Assembly: GCA_016699105.1 (NCBI GenBank)
Contig: CP064960.1
Span: 72,727-136,726 of the forward strand
Reading direction: 5' to 3'
Source of the DNA: a bacterium
GTDB taxonomy: Bacteria; Patescibacteriota; Saccharimonadia; UBA4664
Length of the DNA stretch: 64,000 bases
This document shows, piece by piece, positions 5,254 to 63,839 of the stretch; within the stretch, counting starts at the first letter, position 1, and each line of letters starts with the position of its first letter. The position numbers were made by a program, and so were the translations under genes. The notes beneath the pieces are model-generated. The model saw nothing but the letters and a program-made list of their open reading frames with translations. It was not told where the DNA came from and made no database searches.

Positions 5254-5388
5254 GTGATTATTTTATTGATTTTTCCTATTATAATTGTATAGTGTATTTT
5301 AGTACCAGCTGGGAGGCGAGATTATTGAGGGTTGTAGCCTCGTTCCTCGGCTGGTACTTATTGCTCATTTAAAAATTACTCGTTCAAT

Positions 5389-5778
5389 TTGGCTGAGGAG
5401 AAGAGGTGTCCCGTGCTGGTCGTGTTGGCGTTGGGGTTTGTGGTTGTGAGTACTCTATTCAATGGCTGGGTTCTGCAGGTGATGTGGAACTGGTTCATGC
5501 CTGAGATTTTTCCGGCTCTGCCCAGCTTGTCATTGGCTGAAGCTTTTGGACTGTCACTAGTAGTGGCAGCTATGATGACTGCCGACTCGAGTGATGATGA
5601 TGAGGATGTCGTCGATTGGCTGATTCGTCTTGTCATTTGGGGCTTTGGCCGCGGATTGATCCTGCTGATCGTCGGTTTTTTTCGTTCACGCAGCCATTGT
5701 TTGAGTAGTTTTACGGTGCTTCGGCACCACTGCCCCCGGCGAAGCATGTGCTTCAAAGGGGGCATCACCATTTTTTAA
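5389..5778 (+). CDS. Hypothetical small membrane protein with an acidic (SSDDDED) loop.
   Basis: 129-aa ORF with three hydrophobic segments. An overlapping antisense ORF 5376..5771 is judged less protein-like. Confidence 0.3.
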   Translation: MAEEKRCPVLVVLALGFVVVSTLFNGWVLQVMWNWFMPEIFPALPSLSLAEAFGLSLVVAAMMTADSSDDDEDVVDWLIRLVIWGFGRGLILLIVGFFRSRSHCLSSFTVLRHHCPRRSMCFKGGITIF

Positions 5779-5920
5779 AGGCGTGGCCTGGGGCAATTTA
5801 ACTACCCCAAGCCACGCCCATGTGCGTGCGGTTACTTCTACTCCGAGATTGATTCGTGCCAGCCTTGAGTGATTAGCCCATGTTACCTCCTCCATATGCC
5901 GGAAGTCACCACAGCTATTT

Positions 5921-6552
5921 TTAACTGCGGTCGATGTAGCCGATGAATCGCCAACCGCGATACAAGGCGCGATTGGAGCCTGAAAGGTCGCCGTCCATGC
6001 CAAAGCCGATTAAGTACAGCTTGGGGTCGACATTGTCGAAGCCAATGAAATTCAAAAGTGGCTCGACTGCATGCCGGACGGTTTCAGTGGCGGCTCCCCG
6101 TTTGTAGCAGCCAACCAGAAAATCTAGCGACATGTACGCGATGCTCTGCGACTTAAACTGTTGCTTGATTGCGAGCAACGTCAACAGACTATCACCGACA
6201 TCGTCAACAATGATGACGTGCTTACGAGATAGGTCGACTGGCAATTCGTCAAAATTCAACACCACGTGGCCACTGGTGTGTAACGCGCCAGCTTCGTAAC
6301 TGCTGGCATGAATGGTCGTCATTTCGACGTTGCGAGATGGATTGAGGGCCCGCATCAAATCAACAGTTAAAATAATGCACCAGTGCGTACACCCATCAGC
6401 ATGATGTCGCCTGTGGGATAGCGGTGTTCGATAGCTGCCGCAAGCTCCTGAACCATCCGTCGGCAAGCAACTTCATCGGCGAGCACATGAACTCTTGGGT
6501 CATCGAGTGGGTTGGCAGAATGTGTCGTGGGTACGAGCGAAGTAGGCGCCAT
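5921..6552 (-). CDS. hpt: Hypoxanthine-guanine phosphoribosyltransferase, split by one frameshift near 6380..6420.
   Basis: The N-terminal piece (ORF 6367..6552) reads DDPRVHVLADEVACRRMVQELAAAIEHRYPTGDIMLMGVRTGALF. The downstream frame carries the PRPP-binding motif VIIVDDVGDSLLTLL and C-terminal YLIGFGMDGDL. This is the typical 6-oxopurine PRTase layout. Confidence 0.7.
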
Positions 6553-6609
6553 GGCGTTAGGTTAGCGAAATTTTTACATGGGCGCAAGATGAGGGTCATG
6601 AATTGATGA

Positions 6610-6644
6610 TTGACATTTTATAATACTTATGTTAATATAGCTCA
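6610..6644 (+). promoter_or_regulatory. Sigma70-like promoter: ttgaca, 17-nt spacer, taatat.
   Basis: ttgacattttataatacttatgttaatat lies upstream of the GC-rich small ORF. A structured leader with two short hairpins follows. Confidence 0.35.
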
Positions 6645-6710
6645 CATCACAACAACCGCGTTGTGTGTACACCCATACCCTCTTCGTGAGGGTAAGTGAA
6701 GGAGCCAGAA

Positions 6711-6899
6711 ATGGCTGGAACCTTTGGCCACATGACCCCGCGGGTCGACGCACCGCTGCCGAGGCTCGTCAGGCGGAGAGCGACAAGCTCGCCCAAGCAG
6801 CGCCTGGCACGGCTCGACGAGCGCCTCGGCGCCGGCGTGGGTGCCAAGCAGGAGCGGGCCAGGTTGGCTCGGATGGCTGCGAAGGCCAAGAAGGCCTGA
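6711..6899 (+). CDS. Small basic hypothetical protein (62 aa) in a high-GC islet.
   Basis: The gaaggag RBS sits 7 nt before the ATG. The sequence MAGTFGHMTPRVDAPLPRLVRRRATSSPKQRLARLDERLGAGVGAKQERARLARMAAKAKKA is Arg/Ala-rich. A terminator hairpin follows at 6923..6950. Confidence 0.35.
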   Translation: MAGTFGHMTPRVDAPLPRLVRRRATSSPKQRLARLDERLGAGVGAKQERARLARMAAKAKKA

Positions 6900-6922
6900 C
6901 CATCGCTCCACCGCAACACCCC

Positions 6923-6960
6923 GTCCCCGGTGACTTCGGTCACCGGGGACACCTCATTTA
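6923..6960 (+). terminator. Rho-independent terminator.
   Basis: gtccccggtgac-ttcg-gtcaccggggac, a perfect 12-bp stem, followed by ctcatttatgctc. Confidence 0.45.
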
Positions 6961-7014
6961 TGCTCAACAACAGTTAATTATCTGATATAATAACGTTTAC
7001 AAATTCCGAGCTGC

Positions 7015-7089
7015 GCGGGTATCGCACAACGGCTAGTGTATCTGCCTTCCAAGCAGAGGATGTGGGTTCGATTCCCGCTACCCGCACCA
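7015..7089 (+). tRNA. tRNA-Gly (TCC anticodon), CCA encoded.
   Basis: GCGGGTA...CTGCCTTCCAAGCAG...TTCGATTCCCGC-TACCCGC-A-CCA. The acceptor stem GCGGGTA/TACCCGC is perfect. Confidence 0.75.
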
Positions 7090-7102
7090 AGGAATTATCT
7101 TT

Positions 7103-7179
7103 GCCCCTGTAGCTCAGCTGGATAGAGCAGTGGACTTCTAAGCCAATGGTCGCAGGTTCGGAATCCTGCCGGGGCACCA
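7103..7179 (+). tRNA. tRNA-Arg (TCT anticodon)-like. The anticodon and acceptor stems have mismatches, so it may be a hybrid or damaged tRNA, or contain sequence errors.
   Basis: GCCCCTG-TA-GCTCAGCTGGATAGAGC-A-GTGGA-CTTCTAA-GCCAA-TGGTC-GCAGGTTCGGAATCCTGC-CGGGGC-A-CCA. It closely parallels tRNA-Arg(UCU) from E. coli (as recalled) and B. subtilis, but only 3 of 5 anticodon-stem pairs are Watson-Crick. Its 3-prime half is duplicated at 7800. Confidence 0.55.
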
Positions 7180-7208
7180 GGAATTATTTATTTGACCGTC
7201 GTTTTGAG
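7142..7208 (+). repeat. Direct repeat copy 1: the tRNA-Arg 3-prime half plus 29 nt of downstream sequence (attL-like).
   Basis: gccaatggtcgcaggttcggaatcctgccggggcaccaggaattatttatttgaccgtcgttttgag recurs at 7800..7865 with 1 deletion and 1 substitution. Weaker similarity continues for about 12 nt beyond. Confidence 0.75.
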
Positions 7209-7370
7209 TTGGTGGCCGGTATTTCAAATTAGAAGCGATAATAAACGTGACAATGTTTATTGATAAATTCCCTAGTTTTGTTTTGATCTACTCCGCTTTC
7301 TGCTAAGAGAAATTGTATAAATTGCTGCAAGCAAGTTCCATTAATCTAAGCATTGGTGTTGTATTGATCA

Positions 7371-7775
7371 CTATTGAACCGCGAGACCCACTGCTAATAA
7401 TATTTCCCCATCAGCACTTATGATCAAAAAATTAAAACTCGAATACTGGTGTGACAATGAATTTCTTAGGTTCCAAAGATTTTTAGCATCGTCTTGACTC
7501 AACTCAAAAATCAACGGCCGACTCCATAAAATATTTACTATTACTACCTGGACGCGTTTTTTATATTTAATCCTGATCACTAAATCGACCGCAGTGCAGA
7601 ATAGCAAGGGCGCTGCGAGTAATGGACGCGGCATAATTGGGTTAATTTGAGCACTATGATTGAATAAAATATCTTTCTTGAGCTGTAGTAGCACGCTTCT
7701 GCGTTTTAATACTCCACTGTATACATTTTCAAGCTCTTCGATACATAATTCACGTAAAAGCTGCTCTTGTAGCAT
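7371..7775 (-). CDS. Hypothetical ORF inside the AT-rich insert between the tRNA-Arg repeats.
   Basis: 134-aa ORF in an approximately 35% GC segment. No integrase motifs were recognised. Confidence 0.25.
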   Translation of the reverse strand: MLQEQLLRELCIEELENVYSGVLKRRSVLLQLKKDILFNHSAQINPIMPRPLLAAPLLFCTAVDLVIRIKYKKRVQVVIVNILWSRPLIFELSQDDAKNLWNLRNSLSHQYSSFNFLIISADGEILLAVGLAVQ

Positions 7776-7799
7776 ATAAGTAATAGCTTATTTAATTTG

Positions 7800-7865
7800 G
7801 CCAATGGTCGCAGGTTCGAATCCTGCCGGGGCACCAGTAATTATTTATTTGACCGTCGTTTTGAG
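7800..7865 (+). repeat. Direct repeat copy 2: an orphan tRNA-Arg 3-prime fragment (attR-like) that also covers the hup stop codon.
   Basis: See copy 1. The fragment begins exactly at the 3-prime strand of the anticodon stem. Confidence 0.75.
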
Positions 7866-8116
7866 GCGGTTGCCAGGTCGGAATTGGACGAGTGTCATCG
7901 CCGGGATGGTGATGGGGCTCCGGTGCGAGGATCGACACCTTTGCGGGCGGCCCGATTGCTGGTATCAAAGGTGCCAAAGCCGGAAATACTGACGCGTTCG
8001 CCCGCTGCCACTGTGCGCTCGATTATACCGAGAAGCGTATTGAGGGTGCGCTCACTTTGGCGTTTGGTCAGGTTCGATTCGGTGGCGAGTAATTCGATGA
8101 GTTGTTGTTTGGTCAT
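7845..8116 (-). CDS. hup: HU/IHF-family DNA-binding protein, with a frameshift near 7900.
   Basis: MTKQQLIELLATESNLTKRQSERTLNTLLGIIERTVAAGERVSISGFGTFDTSNRAARKGVDPRTG matches HU. The C-terminus ITIPAMTLVQFRPGNRLKTTVK is in another frame and ends at a TAA stop (7845..7847) inside the repeat. Confidence 0.7.
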
Positions 8117-8913
8117 GGTGAGACTAATTGTATGACTTGCTCAATGGCGGTGGCAAGGCCAGACTTGGTGTCAACCGTGATGATTACGCCACATAATTGG
8201 CGAGTACCGTCGGTTTCGAGCTCATTGCGGCTGCGGTCGCCGCTGAGCCAACGTCGCGTGATAATGTCGGTTTTGATACCAAGGCAAGAATCGCGAGAAC
8301 CAACCATGCCAACGTCGGTGATATGCGCCGTGCCGAGTGGCAGTACCCGAGCATCGGCTGTCGGGATATGCCAGTGATCACCGATTACGGCCGTGACGCG
8401 ACCGTCTAAATATTGGCCAATGACGTACTTTTCGGAGGAATAGTCACCGTGAAGATTGACGACGGTAGCAATGCGAGCTTGGTTTTTGGTGTCTTCAAGG
8501 ATTGCGTCGACGGTGACGAGCGGATTGTCTAAATTTTCGGGCTGACGGTAGCCAACTGTTTGGCCGAGTAAGCTGATAACGAGCACTTTGCCGAAGGGCG
8601 TATCAACAAATTTGTATCCGCGACCAGTCGTACCAGCGGGATAATTGGCGGGCCGCACGAGCGGCTTGGCTGGATCTTCGAGCCACGGATAAATTTCAGG
8701 CCGGTGCAACGTCCAATCGCCACCTGTAAGGGCAGTAACGCCAGTATCGAGCATGGCTTGGGCGTGAGTTGGCAGGAGTCCTTTGCCATGAGAGGTTTTC
8801 TCCTGGGCAACCACCACATCAATACCCTGCTCGGCTATCAAACCAGGTAGGAGCTGTTGGACGGTTTCGCGGCCAGGCCGCCCCATGATATCGCCAAGAT
8901 AAAGTAGTTTCAT
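8113..8913 (-). CDS. ymdB: YmdB-like metallophosphoesterase (2',3'-cyclic-nucleotide phosphodiesterase family).
   Basis: The N-terminal MKLLYLGDIMGRPGR and GDHWH/NLHGDYSSEK motifs match the TIGR00282 calcineurin-like family. It overlaps hup by 4 nt. Confidence 0.7.
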   Translation of the reverse strand: MKLLYLGDIMGRPGRETVQQLLPGLIAEQGIDVVVAQEKTSHGKGLLPTHAQAMLDTGVTALTGGDWTLHRPEIYPWLEDPAKPLVRPANYPAGTTGRGYKFVDTPFGKVLVISLLGQTVGYRQPENLDNPLVTVDAILEDTKNQARIATVVNLHGDYSSEKYVIGQYLDGRVTAVIGDHWHIPTADARVLPLGTAHITDVGMVGSRDSCLGIKTDIITRRWLSGDRSRNELETDGTRQLCGVIITVDTKSGLATAIEQVIQLVSP

Positions 8914-8976
8914 AATTAATATAGTTATACCATAAATGGTGCGCCCCGGACAACACGAGTTGTCCGGGGCATGGTG

Positions 8977-9366
8977 TCAGCTGAGGTTCCAGCGGACGGT
9001 GCGGCGGCTCCAGCGACCCGGCATGATGTCGAACGCGTCGGCGTCGACCGGGTTGAGCCTACCGAGAGCAGCTTTGGCGCTGCGACGATCCTGGCGGTTG
9101 AGGCGCCGAGTCTCGTAGCCGTTGGCCTCGGAGTCGCCGGCCATACCGCCGAAGTGCACCAATTCGCGGCTGCAGTTGGTGTGGATAACGCTGTTGCGCC
9201 ACCCGTGTTTGCCACCCTTACGCCGATTGACAAAGTCCGGCAATACGGGCTGCTCAGCGATCTGGCACAGCGAACCATTCCAGCAGCAGCTGTGGTACAT
9301 GTAGCCGGGCCGAGTCGTGTCAACAGCCTGCAGTGCGTAGGGCTGCGTGTTGTCGGTGCGAGACAT
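8977..9366 (-). CDS. Hypothetical Cys-containing protein in a high-GC islet.
   Basis: 129-aa ORF with diverse composition (YHSCCWNGSLCQ...RRTVRWNLS). The opposite-strand ORF 8971..9450 is Ala/Val-rich and typical of GC antisense. A degenerate copy of the C-terminal coding end lies at 9456. Confidence 0.4.
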   Translation of the reverse strand: MSRTDNTQPYALQAVDTTRPGYMYHSCCWNGSLCQIAEQPVLPDFVNRRKGGKHGWRNSVIHTNCSRELVHFGGMAGDSEANGYETRRLNRQDRRSAKAALGRLNPVDADAFDIMPGRWSRRTVRWNLS

Positions 9367-9455
9367 GATAATCCCCTATCCAGACACCACCATGGTGCCT
9401 TAATGGGGAGGGATGTAGACAACCAAGTGCTGCCTCCAGCCTGTGCGTAATTTGG

Positions 9456-9560
9456 TCAGTTGAGGTTCCAGCGGACAGTGCGGCAACCGAACCGATGACG
9501 GAGTTTGATTATAGCCTGCTTTGGGCCAAGCTGACCAACCCAAATTGATGACACCGGAAG
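9456..9560 (-). repeat. Degenerate partial paralog of the 3-prime end of the 8977..9366 gene.
   Basis: tcagttgaggttccagcggacagtgcggc (9456) versus tcagctgaggttccagcggacggtgcggc (8978). It encodes ...CRTVRWNLN* compared with ...RRTVRWNLS*. Confidence 0.5.
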
Positions 9561-9988
9561 TGCACCGTTGCTCAACTGCCCCCAGACTAGCCAGGCAATC
9601 CGACCTGGATCAATATTATAACCTTGCGTAGGTTCGATATGCGCTCTGTAGGTAGTGACGGTCGTCGATCGACTCGATCCAAGTAATTTCTGGATTCAGA
9701 ATTGATCGAAATGCACTGTGTAAATCCGGATACATATCGATCGGCCTGATTGGCGTCGATCCTGGAAAAATTCGACATCCAGGCTTCAGGTGGTCAGCCG
9801 GTACAACAATCACTGAATGCAATCTGCCGAATCCCAATCTGTAGTCCGTACCAGCTATAAAAGCGGGACGACCTAGACGACAGATAACAACGGCAAGCGA
9901 CATAGACCGCCTTCCTTTATTAGTAGAGGTTCTCGGCGTGCTTGCCGATACTATATTAAAGCACTATTGTGTGCAATTTGCAAACATT

Positions 9989-10914
9989 AGTTCCGTGAAT
10001 CTAAAAACCCACCTCCATCTGGTAACCCAGTAATATCCTGACGTAGTGGAGCAAATAACCATTTACGCTCCGTGGAAACGAGCTCACCAGAGGTAAATGC
10101 TCTTTTAAGTGGTCAAAGGTAGCCTCAATCTTGGCTCGTTTGTACAACAGGGACTGCTGCCACTGTGCCATAACCTGGCGACGCTGGCGCCAGTGAGGCG
10201 GAGCCACGACCACAATTCCCCGTGCCTTGAGCTTGGCCCGCTGAATGCGGTCGCCGTAATGACTGTCACCGACCACGATCTTGGTCTCGGCTCGGACGAG
10301 TTGCTCAGTAATGTGGCCGTCGTAGACATCGGCTGGAGTAAAGGCCAGAGCTGAGATTTGACCTGACCCGTTAATAGCCAAATGGAGCTTAAAGCCATAC
10401 CAGTAGCCTTGCCAGTTTCGACCGACTCCAGCTAATTTTTCGGCCACCCGGTAGCGTCCGGTACGGTGGTTTGAGCAAACGGGTAGTTTGGTCGAATCAA
10501 TAAATTGGATCTTAGCTGGCACCAATAGCATGCCTAGCAACCTCGTGAGCTGGGGTACTAACCGGTGGCAATGAGCCACAAAAGCACCATATGTACCCAG
10601 CTTGGGCACGTCGCGGTGGTGGTACAAAAGCGCCCACCGAAACACATCTTTGAGCGTACGCTGACGAGTACTCGACAAGCAATTCCAGATTAAAAGGGTA
10701 ATGATTTCCGAGTCGCGAACCAGTTTCGGTCGGCCGCCCTGCGGGCGAGCCGGCTCCTCGACGAGACTATCTACAAAGCAAAAGATATCTACGATATGAT
10801 GAGGTTGCAAAGAACGCATTTGGTTTTTCCTTGTTTTGTTTTCCACTTACAAGTTTAACCGGTGCGTTTTTGCATTGTTAATGGGTTAGGGGGTTTTTGA
10901 ATTCACGGTTAGTT
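9989..10914 (-). mobile_element. IS982-family insertion sequence, complete, with imperfect terminal inverted repeats.
   Basis: Left end ttccgtgaatctaaaaaccc and right end gggtttttgaattcacgg (reverse complement ccgtgaattcaaaaaccc) form an 18-bp IR with 2 mismatches. It carries a single transposase ORF and abuts the rny stop codon. Confidence 0.7.
10001..10846 (-). CDS. IS982-family DDE transposase.
   Basis: FIDSTKLPVCSNHR...GYWYGFKLHLAINGSG...VVGDSHYG...KRAKIEATFDHLKEHL...SVNGYLLHY parallels the IS982 ISLL6-type transposase motifs (FIDST..., GWFYGFKLH, ADAGY, RQRVETLFSVLK). Confidence 0.75.
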   Translation of the reverse strand: MENKTRKNQMRSLQPHHIVDIFCFVDSLVEEPARPQGGRPKLVRDSEIITLLIWNCLSSTRQRTLKDVFRWALLYHHRDVPKLGTYGAFVAHCHRLVPQLTRLLGMLLVPAKIQFIDSTKLPVCSNHRTGRYRVAEKLAGVGRNWQGYWYGFKLHLAINGSGQISALAFTPADVYDGHITEQLVRAETKIVVGDSHYGDRIQRAKLKARGIVVVAPPHWRQRRQVMAQWQQSLLYKRAKIEATFDHLKEHLPLVSSFPRSVNGYLLHYVRILLGYQMEVGF

Positions 10915-59677: not shown

Positions 59678-60579
59678 CTATTGCCAGACTCGAACGTAAT
59701 CAACTTGCATATTGGCAGGGACACTATTAGCCGTGCCCCAATTGGCTAAACTGAGGTTGAGAATCAGATAATGTGGGCTCGAAATATTAACGTTGTATGT
59801 ACCGACCTTGATGCCATCATAGAAGTACGTTACTGACCCGGGTTGCCAGTATGAGGCAAATCGATGCCAGCCGGCTGTCAGCGCGGGACATGTAGAGCCG
59901 AGCTGCCCACCAGAGTAATGGTAGGTAAAACAGACGCTACCGCTCAACGTCTCCATAATGTCGTCTTCACCATCGGCTGGCCAATTTTGGCCATCGGTCC
60001 AAAACGCTGCCCAATTGGTTGGGGTTTGACCTGTGGTGCCGGGCGGTAGATTAATGTACGCCTCGGCGTAACCATAGGTGTAGTTAAAATACCGGATCGA
60101 TTGAATCATGCCGCCGGCATGCGTGTATGTAACTCCATTTGCGGCGGTACAGGGTCGTTTTCTAGATCGAGATTTAGTAACCCGTCACCGACCGTTACCT
60201 GTTGTGGATCATAACAAACTGGCTCGGTCGACGTATTTACAGGCTGTGTAATCTTGGTAGCATCCCAGGCCAGCCAGTTTGGATCCCACTTGGTTAAGTC
60301 CAAGTTTGTGCCACTAAATTCATCCTGAAATGCTAGCTGCAAGTTTGATGGAATACTGGCGTCACTCGTCGGATTATATGGTTGTGGTGTGGTGCCGAAT
60401 CGGATCAAGCTATTTCCCGAAGCATCGCCGTGCGAATGGGTACTTACATTGCTAGATACATTGCCAGCTTCAGGCTCAAAGGCCGCCAGTGGGCCAGCAG
60501 CGAGCGAGCGGGTGACAATATAGCCAAGTAAGATGGCGCCACCCACTAAGAGTAATACTTGAGGCTTTACCTTCCACAT
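59678..60579 (-). CDS. Secreted GH16-family glucanase with the shared N-terminal leader module. There is one frameshift near 60106.
   Basis: The leader is MWKVKPQVLLLVGGAILLGYIVTRSLAAGPLAAFEPEAG. GH16 N-terminal LAFQDEFSGTNLDLTKWDPNW. Catalytic motif GEDDIMETL (ExDxxE) in the second frame. Confidence 0.6.
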
Positions 60580-60583
60580 AATA

Positions 60584-61684
60584 TTATTCGAGCACTCTAA
60601 CATGTGGCATTATTAAATCTAGGTCGGCTGGAGCGCCATTCCACCAAACACGAAGTGGAGCCACTTGTGCACTTGAGGTACTCCGCGGATCAGCATAAAG
60701 TACAACTGGATTGGTGCCGTAATTTTGGTCAACCACGTAAGCCCCATACGTCTGAAGTGTATCCCAGACCATGTTTCCGCCCGAAGTCATTCCGGTCGGC
60801 CGCGAGATTCCTGCCGGAATACCAATACGAGCGCCCATTGGAATTGTCCCCTTGTAATTTGTACCGCTGTTACCATCTTCGGCGATAGCTGGAGATACCC
60901 AACCTTTTTTCAGCAATGTGCCTAATAGTGATACTGCCAAAGCTTGATGTTTTACGCCGGTCGTAAAATTATACCCCTGAAGCAGACCTCCTAGCGCTGA
61001 GGCGCCCGCTGCCCTGATACCTGCTGATTTAAACGGACTTGATGTACCAAAACCGCTACCGGTGACTACATCTGTACAACCATACGATGATGAAGTGGCA
61101 GTTATGTCAGATCCACGAACGAAGTGCCAGAAGTCACACACTTTTGTACCGTTCTGGATAATAACTGTTTTATCTGTGCCGGTATCACCTGTCAGTCCTG
61201 AAGGTGCAGCCATTGAAACTGGACCAGCTGGCCATCCCCAAGATGCCGGTACCGTGATTGAAACCATCGGATCAGAAGGAGCGGCAATAGCATATGGCAT
61301 GGAATATTGGGTGCTATTGACGTACCAATGGTTGCTACGCAATAGCGGCTCATCGCGCCACGTTGCATTGGCCGGTAGTGGAGCATTCCAAGGTGATGTA
61401 GAGGCAAATGGCTCTAGGGAGCTAGGTACAACTGTCGGACTTGGCGTAGGTGTGGTTGAGGAGCTGGCAGCAAATTTGACGACACCGTTCCCAGATGATC
61501 CAGCCTGAGATTGGATGCTGGCGCCAGCTGAAAGACTACCGGTTTCAGGCTCAAAGGCCGCCAGTGGGCCAGCAGCGAGCGAGCGGGTGACAATATAGCC
61601 GAGAATAGTTACTGCGCCAATAACAGCCAAGACTCGGAATTTTACCCAAGATGTTGAGCCGAATATCATTGTGGTGACGGGCAA
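60584..61684 (-). CDS. Secreted protein of unknown family (paralog A) with the shared leader module.
   Basis: The leader is VLAVIGAVTILGYIVTRSLAAGPLAAFEPETGSLSAGASIQSQAGSSGNGVVKFA. The C-terminal region TLQTYGAYVVDQNYG is paralogous to the next gene. Confidence 0.55.
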   Translation of the reverse strand: MPVTTMIFGSTSWVKFRVLAVIGAVTILGYIVTRSLAAGPLAAFEPETGSLSAGASIQSQAGSSGNGVVKFAASSSTTPTPSPTVVPSSLEPFASTSPWNAPLPANATWRDEPLLRSNHWYVNSTQYSMPYAIAAPSDPMVSITVPASWGWPAGPVSMAAPSGLTGDTGTDKTVIIQNGTKVCDFWHFVRGSDITATSSSYGCTDVVTGSGFGTSSPFKSAGIRAAGASALGGLLQGYNFTTGVKHQALAVSLLGTLLKKGWVSPAIAEDGNSGTNYKGTIPMGARIGIPAGISRPTGMTSGGNMVWDTLQTYGAYVVDQNYGTNPVVLYADPRSTSSAQVAPLRVWWNGAPADLDLIMPHVRVLE

Positions 61685-62884
61685 GCCGGATTAGATTCGT
61701 TTGTAGCCGGGCCATAGATAACTCGCAGCTGATTCAGTGGAATGGCACTGACTGTATAGCGGTCAATATGTAATGGATCGGCTGTACTGATTGGCCAATT
61801 GGCGGTCGTTTGATCCTCAATATATACCTTAGTTGAACCCGAGTTATCAATGATGTAAGCGCCATATTGCTGTAGCGCTCGAGCAATAGTAACCCCTGCT
61901 GAACTTAGGCCGAGCGTTGTAACATCCAGACTTGGATTCAATTGGACTCGAGCACCCTCGGGCGCGTCAGTGCCTGCGATACCGCCAAAGTTGCCACCAT
62001 CCGATTTAGAGGCTGGGTACCGGCACTCTGGCGAAGGGCCTTTGTAGGCCATTGAAAGCGCATGGTCAATGTGACCTTGTTCAATCTCCCAACGACGCAC
62101 CAAGCCTGAGAGATAGGTTGTGCCAGCACCGCGCCCAGCTTTACCGTCTGCGAAGCGCCCATTATAACCACTGCCAGTGTGGTAACGGAAACCGTTGGTA
62201 GCATAATATGTACCGTTTGGATCTTTACCGAATTGCCAGAAGCCCCATTCGACGTTATTCTGGGCATCCCAGAATGTAATTTGACCGTCGCTACCGACCC
62301 CGCTCACTGCCTGGGCTGGGATCGGAACATTGGGAATCGTAGCAGCAAATCCGTAGCCGACTCGTGAATTATCGCCTGCGTCATAGCTGGAAAAGTATCC
62401 CGACATTTGGACGCTGGCGCGGGGTGTTTCGTTGTCGAAACTATATATCGGTATCGTGTATTGACTAACATCACTTGTTAGAACTGCCTTGTTGGCGAAC
62501 ACGCCTGCACTTTGACCTTCAAGCGGCGTTTTAGTAATTATTCGGTTGATAAAGTTGGTAGAGTTTGGGTCGATAGTAGGAGTCGCGCCGATAGGAGTGT
62601 TCCAAGGAGCTGAAGTGTCATAGGGCGTCCGGTGGTCGGCAACCGGCACTGATGTGGTAGTAGAGAATTTGACGACTCCACTGCCGCTGGCTCCGGTGGC
62701 AGATTGGACGATTGGCGCCAGCAGTCAGCGTGCCAGTCTCGGGTTCAAAGGCCGCCATTGGACCGGCGGCAAATGACTGGACGACCATATAGCCCAATAG
62801 TACTGTGCCTATCAGGAGCACTACCAAGCGCACTCGAGACAGTTGGTGGTTTGATTTAAGGATTGATTTGGGCGCCATTATCAT
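61666..62884 (-). CDS. Secreted protein of unknown family (paralog B) with the shared leader module. There is a frameshift near 62700.
   Basis: The N-terminus MAPKSILKSNHQLSRVRLVVLLIGTVLLGYMVVQSFAAGPMAAFEPETGTLTAGA is encoded in ORF 62618..63088. The body (ORF 61666..62649) carries ALQQYGAYIIDNSGS, as in paralog A. Confidence 0.5.
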
Positions 62885-63839
62885 CGAAATAGTTACCTTG
62901 CCAGGTGGCTCCACTAATACTAACCGGACCGTACCCAGCGTTGCGGGTGAAGCGGTTATTTCGAAATACCGTTGATGAAGCAACTTGGCCGGCGTTGATT
63001 GTCCAACCGCCGCCGTCAAATAGGTTGTTCTCAACCAGCCAATTGGAAATACCCTGCCCACTTTCATTGCCCATCTGGATACAGGCATTGGCGCCGTTGG
63101 TGGTACTTAGCTTACAGGTTGTGTGTCTGATTGTGACATTGTTGCCACCGGTCGTCTGAATACCATCGTTGTGGGTGTCATTGCCAACCGATAGGTTGTG
63201 GACATAACTATCTTCTATGAGCACATCACCGTCAGCTTTGATGCCATCGGCGGCACCATAAATCTCGACCCGCCGCAGCGTGTAGTTGGCAAAGCTGATA
63301 CCGGCTGTGACATTGCTATTGGTGCCAATAATTTCGCTGTCTTCAATAAGTAAGCCGGTATTGTCATTATCGAAATAGCGGATGGGATAGTAATCTCCCG
63401 AAGTGATTCTGGTGTTTTTGATAGTGACATTATTAGCCCGAATGATGACTTCGCCGTTAATATTGAGCCCATTAATGACGGTGCCGTTTTGCGTAATGGT
63501 AATTGATGAACTGGGCGTGAGCGAGACACCGGCCGGCACTCCGGTATTGGTTTCGTCGGGGTATCCACATACGTGGGGCGAGGCAATGCAGTTATATTGT
63601 GCTGCAGGCGTACCAGTTGGTGTGGGCGTGGCAGCGGTTGCGAACCTGACGACACCACTGCCCGATGCTCCGGTGGCAGATTGGACGGTGGCGCCAGCAG
63701 TCAGCGTGCCAGTCTCGGGTTCAAAGGCCGCCATTGGACCGGCGGCAAATGACTGGACGACCATATAGCCCAATAGTACTGTGCCTATCAGGAGCACTAC
63801 GGCGGCGGCACGGAATTGAGTGTTGTATTTCATTTGCAT
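62856..63839 (-). CDS. Secreted right-handed parallel beta-helix (pectate-lyase-fold) protein with the shared leader module.
   Basis: The leader is MQMKYNTQFRAAAVVLLIGTVLLGYMVVQSFAAGPMAAFEPETGTLTAGATVQSATGASGSGVVRFA. Repeated beta-helix rungs follow (NNVTIKNTRI, LLIEDSEIIG, VLIEDSYVHN, NNVTIRHTTC). Confidence 0.6.
   Translation of the reverse strand: MQMKYNTQFRAAAVVLLIGTVLLGYMVVQSFAAGPMAAFEPETGTLTAGATVQSATGASGSGVVRFATAATPTPTGTPAAQYNCIASPHVCGYPDETNTGVPAGVSLTPSSSITITQNGTVINGLNINGEVIIRANNVTIKNTRITSGDYYPIRYFDNDNTGLLIEDSEIIGTNSNVTAGISFANYTLRRVEIYGAADGIKADGDVLIEDSYVHNLSVGNDTHNDGIQTTGGNNVTIRHTTCKLSTTNGANACIQMGNESGQGISNWLVENNLFDGGGWTINAGQVASSTVFRNNRFTRNAGYGPVSISGATWQGNYFDDNGAQINP

What the first reader, a model, noticed from the sequence alone, without database searches (positions are those of the whole stretch)
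7103..7865. Integration scar at tRNA-Arg: 66-nt direct repeat of the tRNA 3-prime half plus the hup 3-prime end, bracketing a 590-bp AT-rich insert
The 3-prime 38 nt of tRNA-Arg(TCT), starting exactly at the anticodon-stem 3-prime strand, plus 29 nt of downstream sequence reappear 658 bp downstream. The downstream sequence includes the hup stop codon and C-terminal codons. The second copy has 1 indel and 1 substitution.

This is the classical attL/attR signature of tyrosine-recombinase integration into a tRNA gene. The enclosed segment (7209..7799) is AT-rich and holds only a 134-aa orphan ORF. I could not recognise an integrase in it. It therefore looks like a remnant of a deleted island or a miniature element.

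The tRNA itself has an imperfect anticodon stem. That fits a hybrid reconstituted tRNA, or sequence errors.
Basis: partly seen in the sequence, partly recalled or inferred. Interest (0 to 1): 0.6.

Follow-up and report, generated by a model that had tools for sequence, protein, structure and literature searches.

The report
Single-gene insertion scar at tRNA-Arg
A small foreign gene for a probable RNA-cutting (HEPN-type) protein has been inserted between a tRNA-Arg gene and the hup gene of a Saccharibacteria genome. It is flanked by a duplicated 76-base piece of that junction, which is a familiar kind of integration scar, here unusually small and without any integrase.

Summary
Bases 7142-7217 recur at 7800-7874: 66 nt are near-identical, then 9 nt have 3 differences. 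None of 100 shuffles gave a match.

The closest relative found (L010, YmdB 90% identical) has the empty site, with tRNA-Arg directly followed by hup. The insert has the lowest GC of the whole window (35.6% against 51.4%).

The insert is not "an orphan 134-aa ORF plus spacer". It is filled by one roughly 183-codon gene (7229-7775, minus strand) of a rare unnamed family (about 40 clusters). The family carries an invariant Rx4HxY motif and has a HEPN/HepT-like predicted fold.

The tRNA's imperfect anticodon stem is conserved across the lineage, so it is not a hybrid artefact. The tRNA's low score comes from two one-base indels at G runs. Indels of this sort are concentrated in 6929-7914. One breaks hup and four break the inserted gene, and they look like assembly errors.

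No integrase is present in or near the insert. The hup fragment in copy 1 carries the L010-type C-terminus (HQ), not the resident type (NR), so the block was imported from a related strain.

Another relative (L014) has an unrelated single gene at the same tRNA end, flanked by a 12-nt repeat.

Verdict: a real integration scar of a known kind. It cannot move on its own, and the recombinase is unresolved.

The parts
7015..7089 (+). tRNA-Gly(TCC), immediately upstream in the tRNA cluster (context only)
   Evidence: ARAGORN. Rfam 66 bits.
7103..7179 (+). tRNA-Arg(TCT), the regenerated target gene. The 5' part (7103-7141) is present only once. The 3' part from position 39 lies inside repeat copy 1.
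   Evidence: ARAGORN. Rfam 45.5 bits against 64.6 bits for the L010 orthologue. It differs from L010 only by an extra G at 7160/61 (T-loop) and a missing G in the G5 run of the acceptor 3' strand.
7142..7217 (+). Direct repeat copy 1 (attL-like): tRNA-Arg positions 39 to CCA, a 9-nt spacer, then the hup stop and 9 codons
7188..7217 (-). Dead hup 3' fragment inside copy 1. It encodes GHQLKTTVK*, the L010-type C-terminus.
   Evidence: The 9 nt at 7209-7217 (TTGGTGGCC) are identical to L010 and differ at 3 positions from the resident hup.
7229..7775 (-). Cargo gene: a HEPN-like (Rx4HxY) protein of about 183 codons, read in three frames. The called 134-aa ORF is 7371-7775. Frame changes lie near 7557, 7506, 7406 and about 7300.
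   Evidence: tblastn with P0002/P0003. Family HMM hits in three frames covering HMM positions 6-199. Homologues. Structure and fold search.
7800..7874 (+). Direct repeat copy 2 (attR-like). 7800-7836 is the displaced tRNA-Arg 3' half. The rest is the true 3' end of the resident hup.
   Evidence: This copy has the canonical 7-nt T-loop TTCGAAT.
7845..8116 (-). Resident hup (HU-type DNA-binding protein). It ends in GNRLKTTVK* and is broken by a one-base gap at the G4 run at 7914.
   Evidence: Pfam Bac_DNA_binding, 1e-20. Alignment to L010 hup shows a single missing base at 7914.
8127..8156 (-). Promoter-like site upstream of hup. No terminator-like site lies between hup and the cargo gene, so co-transcription is inferred.
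   Evidence: consensus match only.

Best explanation
A single horizontally acquired gene, a HEPN-like probable RNase, was inserted at the convergent tRNA-Arg(UCU)/hup junction of a Saccharimonadia chromosome.

The insertion arose by recombination inside a segment of about 76 nt that the incoming DNA shared with the target. That segment runs from tRNA position 39 to CCA, through the spacer, to the last 9 codons of hup.

The outcome is the classical one. The tRNA is completed by the incoming copy of the block (7142-7217). The original tRNA 3' half stays attached to the resident hup (7800-7874).

The element has no recombinase of its own. It is therefore a non-autonomous, att-flanked islet, like a CIME or a decayed island.

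The incoming block contains hup coding sequence of the L010-type lineage. Hence the DNA came from a related Saccharimonadia chromosome that already carried the insertion. My preferred route into this genome is RecA-type homologous recombination of DNA from a relative, as a circle or a linear piece. An integrase or an illegitimate event would have made the first insertion in some ancestor.

The cargo gene lies directly downstream of hup on the same strand with no terminator between them, so it is probably expressed by read-through from hup.

Shown: the repeat, the empty site, the foreign composition, the cargo gene family and the imported hup fragment.
Inferred: the recombination route, the expression, and the RNase or defence role.
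For: - The repeat is confirmed and far beyond chance.
- Empty site: L010 (YmdB 90% identical) has tRNA-Arg 10 nt from the hup stop, and L018 is also empty.
- The insert is 35.6% GC, the lowest of all 582-bp windows in 64 kb (mean 51.4%, sd 3.4).
- The insert is one gene with only 11 nt and 24 nt of flank.
- The hup fragment in copy 1 reads CAC CAA (HQ), identical to L010. The resident hup reads AAC CGC (NR), close to the AAA CGN (KR) of four more distant relatives. So copy 1 is not a copy of the resident gene.
- No integrase was found in or near the insert.
- L014 carries an unrelated single low-GC gene (AstE/AspA-like) at the same tRNA end. A 12-nt repeat of the tRNA 3' terminus flanks it, and the ancestral spacer is still attached to hup.
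- Cargo gene: R121 and H126 are invariant, and D77 and Y128 nearly so, in 34 homologues. The AlphaFold2 model has pLDDT 95. The seven best PDB matches are all HepT/HEPN toxins.
Against: - The enzyme is not identified, and only 64 kb of a 1.32-Mb contig could be inspected. An integrase elsewhere in the genome cannot be excluded.
- The donor-lineage argument rests on 3-4 nucleotide positions.
- The region has many single-base assembly errors, so small differences between the two copies are unreliable.
- The 12-nt repeat in L014 is too short for RecA. At least that event needs site-specific or illegitimate recombination.
- The HEPN assignment is weak by sequence (Pfam HepT-like E = 0.14, below threshold) and modest by fold (Foldseek E 0.09-0.6, TM 0.29-0.43).
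Confidence: 0.65

Rival explanations
1. Classical route only. A phage, ICE or island with a tyrosine integrase integrated into tRNA-Arg, then lost everything except one cargo gene by deletion. The block is its attP-derived identity segment.
For: - tRNA 3' halves are the usual targets, and a regenerated tDNA plus a displaced fragment is the defining signature (PMC4383910).
- The same tRNA end was used independently in L014, with a repeat too short for homologous recombination.
Against: - There is no integrase or any phage or ICE gene remnant. The insert is exactly one gene with 11-nt and 24-nt flanks.
- Two independent cases (window and L014) both reduced to exactly one gene would be a coincidence.
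- The identity block does not include the anticodon loop. It extends 38 nt past the tRNA into hup coding sequence of a relative, which an attP does not need.
- No viral contig carries the tRNA 3' half or the spacer.
Confidence: 0.25
2. In-situ duplicative insertion. A break or template-switch repair event copied foreign DNA into the junction and duplicated about 76 nt of target, with no att site involved.
For: The block has arbitrary-looking ends. A short GCC/GGCC microhomology sits at both junctions: 7215-7217 at the end of the block and 7142-7144 / 7800-7802 at its start (direct reading).
Against: A fresh duplication would give two copies of the resident sequence. Instead copy 1 carries L010-type states at all four differing non-tRNA positions, and the functional copy is the one that differs from L010. 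A 3-nt microhomology is not significant.
Confidence: 0.07
3. Assembly artefact: a chimeric or mis-polished join of strain variants in a metagenome-assembled genome.
For: - The stretch 6929-7914 is unusually rich in single-base indels relative to L010. One of these breaks the hup reading frame.
- Runs of five or more G or C are depleted in the window (0.47 per kb against 0.7-2.0 in relatives).
Against: - Homopolymer errors do not create a 590-bp insert with a truncated hup fragment fused to a full-length foreign gene.
- The protein is on record in NCBI from a 1.32-Mb contig.
- The architecture has an independent parallel in L014, a different assembly.
Confidence: 0.03

Closest known systems
tDNA-integrated genomic islands or prophages (the principle used by the Islander database, PMC4383910)
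   Same: The target tRNA is regenerated by sequence on the inserted DNA. A displaced tRNA 3' fragment in direct orientation marks the far end. Relatives have the empty site. The composition is foreign.
   Different: - There is no integrase.
- The insert is only 590 bp and holds one gene.
- The identity block starts just after the anticodon loop.
- It runs 38 nt beyond the tRNA into the 3' end of the convergent hup gene.
- The block's distal end is chromosomal sequence of a related lineage.
Cis-mobilizable elements (CIMEs) of streptococcal ICEs (definition in PMC6323972)
   Same: It is flanked by attL-like and attR-like repeats and lacks integration and transfer genes, so it could move only with outside help.
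   Different: No cognate ICE or integrase is known for it. CIMEs are usually several kb, are defined by att sites of a known ICE family, and have demonstrated mobilisation in cis. None of this is shown here.
HepT/HEPN toxins of HEPN-MNT toxin-antitoxin modules (PDB 7ae8, 6m6w, 5yep)
   Same: The cargo protein has the Rx4HxY signature (RNSLSHQY) and a conserved upstream acidic residue. Its predicted helical fold finds these toxins as its best PDB matches.
   Different: - It is about 200 aa against about 130-150 aa, with extra N- and C-terminal elements.
- Its Pfam scores are below threshold.
- No MNT nucleotidyltransferase partner lies next to it here or in the nine homologue contexts examined.
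Integron gene cassettes
   Same: It is one tightly packed ORF plus one recombination site. It is inserted downstream of a promoter it does not own, here apparently that of hup.
   Different: There is no attC-type imperfect palindrome, no IntI and no attI. The recombination site is a piece of tRNA/hup chromosome. This is an analogy only.

Membership tests
tDNA-integrated genomic island (tyrosine-integrase type) | Complete (regenerated) tRNA gene at one end | tested here: met
   ARAGORN and Rfam call tRNA-Arg(TCT) at 7103-7179. The score is lowered by two one-base indels that are probably assembly errors.
tDNA-integrated genomic island (tyrosine-integrase type) | Displaced 3' fragment of the same tRNA, in direct orientation, at the other end | tested here: met
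   7800-7836 matches tRNA positions 39 to CCA.
tDNA-integrated genomic island (tyrosine-integrase type) | Integrase gene inside the island, usually next to one att site | tested here: not met
   The insert holds one HEPN-like gene only. No recombinase domain was found in neighbouring ORFs or in ten large ORFs of the window.
tDNA-integrated genomic island (tyrosine-integrase type) | Empty target site in related genomes | tested here: met
   L010 and L018 have tRNA-Arg directly followed by hup.
tDNA-integrated genomic island (tyrosine-integrase type) | Crossover at a canonical sublocation (anticodon loop, T-loop or 3' end), with the identity block confined to the tRNA | tested here: inconclusive
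   - The anticodon loop is excluded, because the 7 nt before each copy share 1 of 7 bases.
- A crossover in the T-loop or at the 3' end is possible.
- The block overshoots the tRNA by 38 nt.
CIME (cis-mobilizable element) | attL and attR retained, integration and transfer genes absent | tested here: met
   Definition from PMC6323972.
CIME (cis-mobilizable element) | att sites recognised by the integrase of a related ICE, with mobilisation in cis | not testable with these tools
   No ICE or integrase partner was found. Only 64 kb of the genome is available.
HEPN superfamily (HepT-like) for the cargo protein | Rx4-6H catalytic motif (Rx4HxY in HepT) | tested here: met
   The window protein reads RNSLSHQY. 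R and H are invariant and Y nearly invariant in 34 homologues.
HEPN superfamily (HepT-like) for the cargo protein | Significant match to a HEPN-clan profile | tested here: not met
   - HepT-like E = 0.14, 12.4 bits against a cut-off of 23.5.
- Single homologues touch HEPN_Cthe2314 (0.0031), RiboL-PSP-HEPN (0.015) and NTase_sub_bind (0.054).
- The PDB sequence profile search found nothing relevant.
HEPN superfamily (HepT-like) for the cargo protein | HEPN four-helix fold | tested here: inconclusive
HEPN-MNT toxin-antitoxin module | Adjacent MNT nucleotidyltransferase antitoxin gene | tested here: not met
   No second gene lies in the insert. Homologue neighbours vary (His_Phos_1, Fic plus an unknown gene, unknown genes) and none is an MNT.
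Transposon or IS insertion with target-site duplication | Short target-site duplication (2-15 bp), terminal inverted repeats and a transposase | tested here: not met
   The duplication is 76 nt. No terminal inverted repeats were found and there is no transposase in the insert.

The most novel reading that the evidence does not exclude
Saccharimonadia gain accessory genes as integrase-less single-gene cassettes. These insert at the 3' ends of the tRNAs in the His/Pro/Gly/Arg cluster and carry a copy of the tRNA 3' end, sometimes with more of the flank, as their recombination site. They would spread between related strains by DNA uptake and host recombination.

The window insert (a HEPN-like gene) and the L014 insert (an AstE/AspA-like gene) would be two instances. 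The short tRNA-Pro 3'-end duplications in L035 and L038 would be empty or decayed ones.
Probability: 0.12. Interest if true: 0.6.

Novelty: new member of a known kind. Interest (0 to 1): 0.3.

Why it matters
Mobile-element biology in Saccharibacteria and other Patescibacteria is poorly described. This locus gives a clean, datable example of gene gain at a tRNA, with the empty site preserved in a sister lineage. A second, independent single-gene insertion sits at the same tRNA end in another relative.

The locus also flags a small unnamed protein family (about 40 clusters among 1.84 billion representatives). The family has a HEPN-type catalytic motif and a confidently predicted fold, and it may be a stand-alone RNase toxin or defence gene.

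For annotation, the apparent defects of tRNA-Arg and hup, and the truncation of the inserted gene, are most likely homopolymer errors of the assembly and not biology.

Tried and rejected
- Exact or degenerate search for the spacer/hup part of the block in metagenome contigs and viral contigs gave no hits.
- The tRNA-Arg 3' half was searched in viral contigs with no hits, so no attP-bearing phage was found.
- The insert was searched against the phage database. Only generic tRNA matches came back.
- PADLOC and PHROGs searches on the 134-aa ORF found nothing useful.
- A protein-guided locus search for the cargo family found nothing in viral contigs and only the already known contig in metagenomes. 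The broader alignment was too divergent for that tool.
- The contigs of the homologues have no tRNA next to the gene, no flanking direct repeats and no trace of the 76-nt block.
- "Hybrid tRNA explains the anticodon stem" is rejected, because the mismatches are conserved in all relatives.
- "Pseudogene by real frameshifts" is considered less likely than assembly error. All four frame changes are repaired by adding bases to homopolymer runs. That is the same direction as the errors in hup, the tRNA and a terminator hairpin. It cannot be excluded.
- Thermodynamic folding of the tRNA was uninformative.
- The L035 and L038 inserts have no Rfam family.

Full report
**1. The observation**

The region was read directly and scanned for repeats.
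- 7142-7160 is identical to 7800-7818.
- 7161-7217 matches 7818-7874 at 93%.
- The register shifts by one base because copy 1 has GG where copy 2 has G (7160/7161).
- Within the first 66 nt there is that indel and one substitution (G7181 against T7838).
- The next 9 nt (TTGGTGGCC against GCGGTTGCC) differ at 3 positions, after which similarity ends.
- A 48-nt piece of the block occurs only at these two places in the window with up to 3 mismatches. It occurred in none of 100 dinucleotide-preserving shuffles.
- In a whole-window repeat scan this is the only such repeat apart from paralogous gene segments at 60-64 kb.

- ARAGORN and Rfam find tRNA-Arg(TCT) at 7102/7103-7176/7178.
- The repeat starts at tRNA position 39, the first base of the 3' strand of the anticodon stem. 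It covers the rest of the tRNA including CCA.
- The block then continues through a 9-nt spacer into the stop codon and last nine codons of hup on the opposite strand.

**2. Source genome and its quality**

The 134-aa ORF is on record in NCBI as IPG36_00565 of an unclassified "bacterium" MAG, on a 1.32-Mb contig. Thirty-seven loci encoding relatives of the neighbouring YmdB protein were found. Nearly all are labelled Saccharimonadia, Saccharibacteria or Patescibacteria, or simply "bacterium".

Alignment with the closest locus (L010, YmdB 90% identical) shows a cluster of single-base gaps between 6929 and 7914.
- Nearly all are places where L010 has a run of five G or C and the window has four.
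- They include both arms of a terminator hairpin, the acceptor 3' strand of tRNA-Arg in both repeat copies, and position 7914 inside hup.
- The base missing at 7914 breaks the reading frame of hup, an HU-type protein.
- Runs of five or more G or C are about half as frequent in the window as in relatives.

I conclude that the assembly undercalls homopolymers locally. This is an inference from the pattern, because the sequencing method is not known to me. Single-base differences in this stretch should not be given biological meaning.

**3. The tRNA**

It does not.
- All nine relatives' tRNA-Arg(UCU) genes have the same G27.A43 and A31.G39 mismatches.
- In the more distant relatives the inner pairs covary, for example U28-A42 and G29-C41 become G-C and A-U.
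- L010's tRNA, identical to the window's apart from two indels, scores 64.6 bits. The window's scores 45.5 bits.
- The deficit is due to the extra G in the T-loop and the missing G in the acceptor strand.

**4. Empty site**

- In L010 the order is tRNA-Gly, tRNA-Arg, 10 nt, hup stop. L018 is also empty, with a 17-nt gap.
- Nucleotide alignment of the window to L010 runs 6918-7217 and resumes at 7800. It maps both copies of the block to the single L010 junction.
Formally, it could instead be precise loss of the insert in the L010 lineage.

**5. The insert**

Composition: 7218-7799 has 35.6% GC. The minimum among all 582-bp windows lies here, against a mean of 51.4% and sd of 3.4.

Gene content: the insert is not a 134-aa ORF plus non-coding DNA.
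- tblastn with the two database homologues (200 and 202 aa, 46% and 41% identity) finds matches in three frames.
- A family HMM searched against the three minus-strand frames covers HMM positions 6-199 between 7769 and 7235.
- The gene runs from the ATG at 7775 to the TAA at 7229-7231.
- Only 11 nt remain before the hup fragment and 24 nt before the displaced tRNA half.

Frame changes: there are four, near 7557, 7506, 7406 and about 7300.
- Each is repaired by adding one or two bases to a homopolymer run.
- This is the same direction as the errors noted in section 2.
- I therefore think the gene is probably intact in the organism, but real decay cannot be excluded.

**6. The cargo protein**

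- An exhaustive profile search of 1.84 billion representative proteins found only 40 relatives, almost all about 200 aa.
- In an alignment of 34 of them, R121 and H126 are invariant. D77, L117 and Y128 are nearly so, giving LWxLRNxxSHxY, which is the Rx4HxY signature of HepT-type HEPN RNases.
- Pfam gives only sub-threshold hits, but to four different HEPN-clan families in four different members.
- AlphaFold2 on the alignment gives a confident model (pLDDT 95.3, pTM 0.91).
- The seven best Foldseek matches in the PDB are all HepT/HEPN toxins (7ae8, 7ae2, 6m6w, 5yep). The scores are modest, with E 0.09-0.6 and TM 0.29-0.43.
- No MNT antitoxin gene accompanies it here or in nine homologue contexts. 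Neighbours vary: His_Phos_1, Fic plus an unknown gene, or unknown genes.
- In two contigs the homologue also has lower GC than its surroundings.

The best reading is a stand-alone HEPN-like accessory protein, possibly a toxin or defence RNase. Activity is inferred, not shown.

**7. Mechanism of insertion**

No integrase was found.
- The insert has no room for one, and the flanking genes are tRNAs, hup, ymdB, an IS transposase and rny.
- Ten large ORFs elsewhere in the window are pilus, chaperone and other housekeeping genes or have no Pfam match.
- Neither the block nor the tRNA half occurs in viral contigs.

The hup fragment in copy 1 reads GGC CAC CAA CTC (G H Q L).
- This is identical to L010.
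- The resident hup reads GGC AAC CGC CTC (G N R L).
- Four more distant relatives read GGC AAR CGN CTC (G K R L).
- The dead fragment thus shares derived states with the L010 lineage and is not a copy of the resident gene.
- At the fourth differing position (7181/7838) copy 1 is again L010-like.
- Both copies share the window-type spacer (ACCGTCG, where L010 has ACTGTGG).

What this pattern means:
- It is what a single crossover within the block between the resident junction and a homologous block on incoming DNA from a related strain would leave.
- Equally, it fits a double crossover importing an existing insertion from such a strain, with the right-hand exchange inside copy 2.
- The block begins after the anticodon loop, so an anticodon-loop crossover is excluded. 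The 7 nt preceding the two copies share 1 of 7 bases.
- The block ends 38 nt beyond the tRNA. It looks like a captured piece of chromosome and not an evolved attP.
- Cultivated Saccharibacteria are naturally transformable and are engineered by homologous recombination (my own knowledge). The window carries type IV pilus genes.

I therefore prefer homologous recombination as the route into this genome. How the very first insertion arose remains open.

**8. A parallel case**

In L014 (YmdB 67% identical), hup is followed by GGAATTATTTG, the same spacer as in the empty sites. Next come the last 12 nt of tRNA-Arg (CCCGGGGCACCA), a single 237-aa AstE/AspA-like gene, and the complete tRNA-Arg.
- The 12-nt exact repeat is the only direct repeat of 10 nt or more in that 900-nt stretch.
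- The insert is the lowest-GC segment of that locus, at 43.9% against 52.2%.
- The same tRNA end therefore received an unrelated single gene independently.
- Its repeat is too short for RecA. This keeps site-specific or illegitimate recombination in play for the primary events.
- L012 and L013 have other genes between hup and tRNA-Arg without repeats.
- More generally, the tRNA-His/Pro/Gly/Arg cluster is contiguous in L017 but interrupted at different points in other lineages. It behaves as a hotspot for gene gain.

**9. Comparison with known systems, and verdict**

- The structure fits the principle that a regenerated tDNA and its displaced fragment mark the ends of an integrated element (PMC4383910).
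- It lacks the integrase that defines an autonomous island.
- By definition it resembles CIMEs, which retain attL and attR but have lost integration and transfer genes (PMC6323972). No partner ICE is known.
- It is not a transposon insertion, because the duplication is 76 nt and there are no terminal inverted repeats.

I rate it a new member of a known kind. The integrase claim is unproven.

Interest is modest. It rests on the setting (Patescibacteria), the one-gene size, the recurrence in L014 and the uncharacterised HEPN-like family.

Noticed in passing
window 6929-7914 (6929, 6949, 7171, 7406, 7832, 7914 and others): Single-base gaps relative to L010 cluster here. Nearly all are runs of five G or C read as four. 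One breaks the hup reading frame, and the same G5-to-G4 change is in both copies of the tRNA acceptor strand. This looks like local homopolymer undercalling in the assembly. It may be worse here because the locus is repeated or polymorphic.
   Followed up: partly
window 7129-7146, and tRNA-Arg(UCU) genes in L010-L045: The anticodon stem of tRNA-Arg(UCU) has conserved non-Watson-Crick G27.A43 and A31.G39 in all Saccharimonadia examined. The three inner pairs covary. The L010 gene still scores 64.6 bits in Rfam.
   Followed up: partly
L014 7142-7913: An independent single-gene insertion (237-aa AstE/AspA-like protein) lies between hup and tRNA-Arg. It is flanked by an exact 12-nt repeat of the tRNA 3' end (7142-7153 and 7902-7913) and is the lowest-GC segment of that locus.
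   Followed up: partly
L035 7307-7519: The last 18 nt of tRNA-Pro(UGG) recur 178 nt downstream around a hairpin-rich non-coding insert. A further motif (CAGCTGAC..ATTTGAACCGG) is repeated after the second copy. There is no Rfam match.
   Followed up: partly
L038 7225-7312: A partial second copy of the tRNA-Pro 3' half lies 75-150 nt downstream of the gene. It is split in the T-loop by about 62 nt (GTCGCAGGTTCG ... ATCCTGTCTCCCCG). There is no Rfam match above noise.
   Followed up: partly
window 5274-6917 against L010 7349-8424: The segment between tRNA-Pro and tRNA-Gly shares no nucleotide similarity between the window and its closest relative. The window has broken phosphoribosyltransferase-like ORFs and L010 has a HAD/SerB-like gene. 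Both keep a small basic ORF and a terminator hairpin just upstream of tRNA-Gly. This is a second variable spot in the same tRNA cluster.
   Followed up: partly
window 8976-10846: A DDE transposase (DDE_Tnp_1_3, 10001-10846) sits between rny and ymdB, where L010 has a 269-aa ORF instead. A 30-nt direct repeat (8976-9005 and 9455-9484) lies beside it, and both copies match one L010 site.
   Followed up: no
L050 4063-6621 (also L051): A homologue of the HEPN-like cargo gene follows a Fic-domain gene and a 273-aa gene of unknown function. The trio is wedged between ftsK and rpsF-ssb-rpsR and may be a small toxin or defence islet.
   Followed up: no
window 60455-63800: Three to four tandem paralogous gene copies share repeat segments of 74-112 nt (spacing about 1.0-1.2 kb). 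None has a Pfam match.
   Followed up: no
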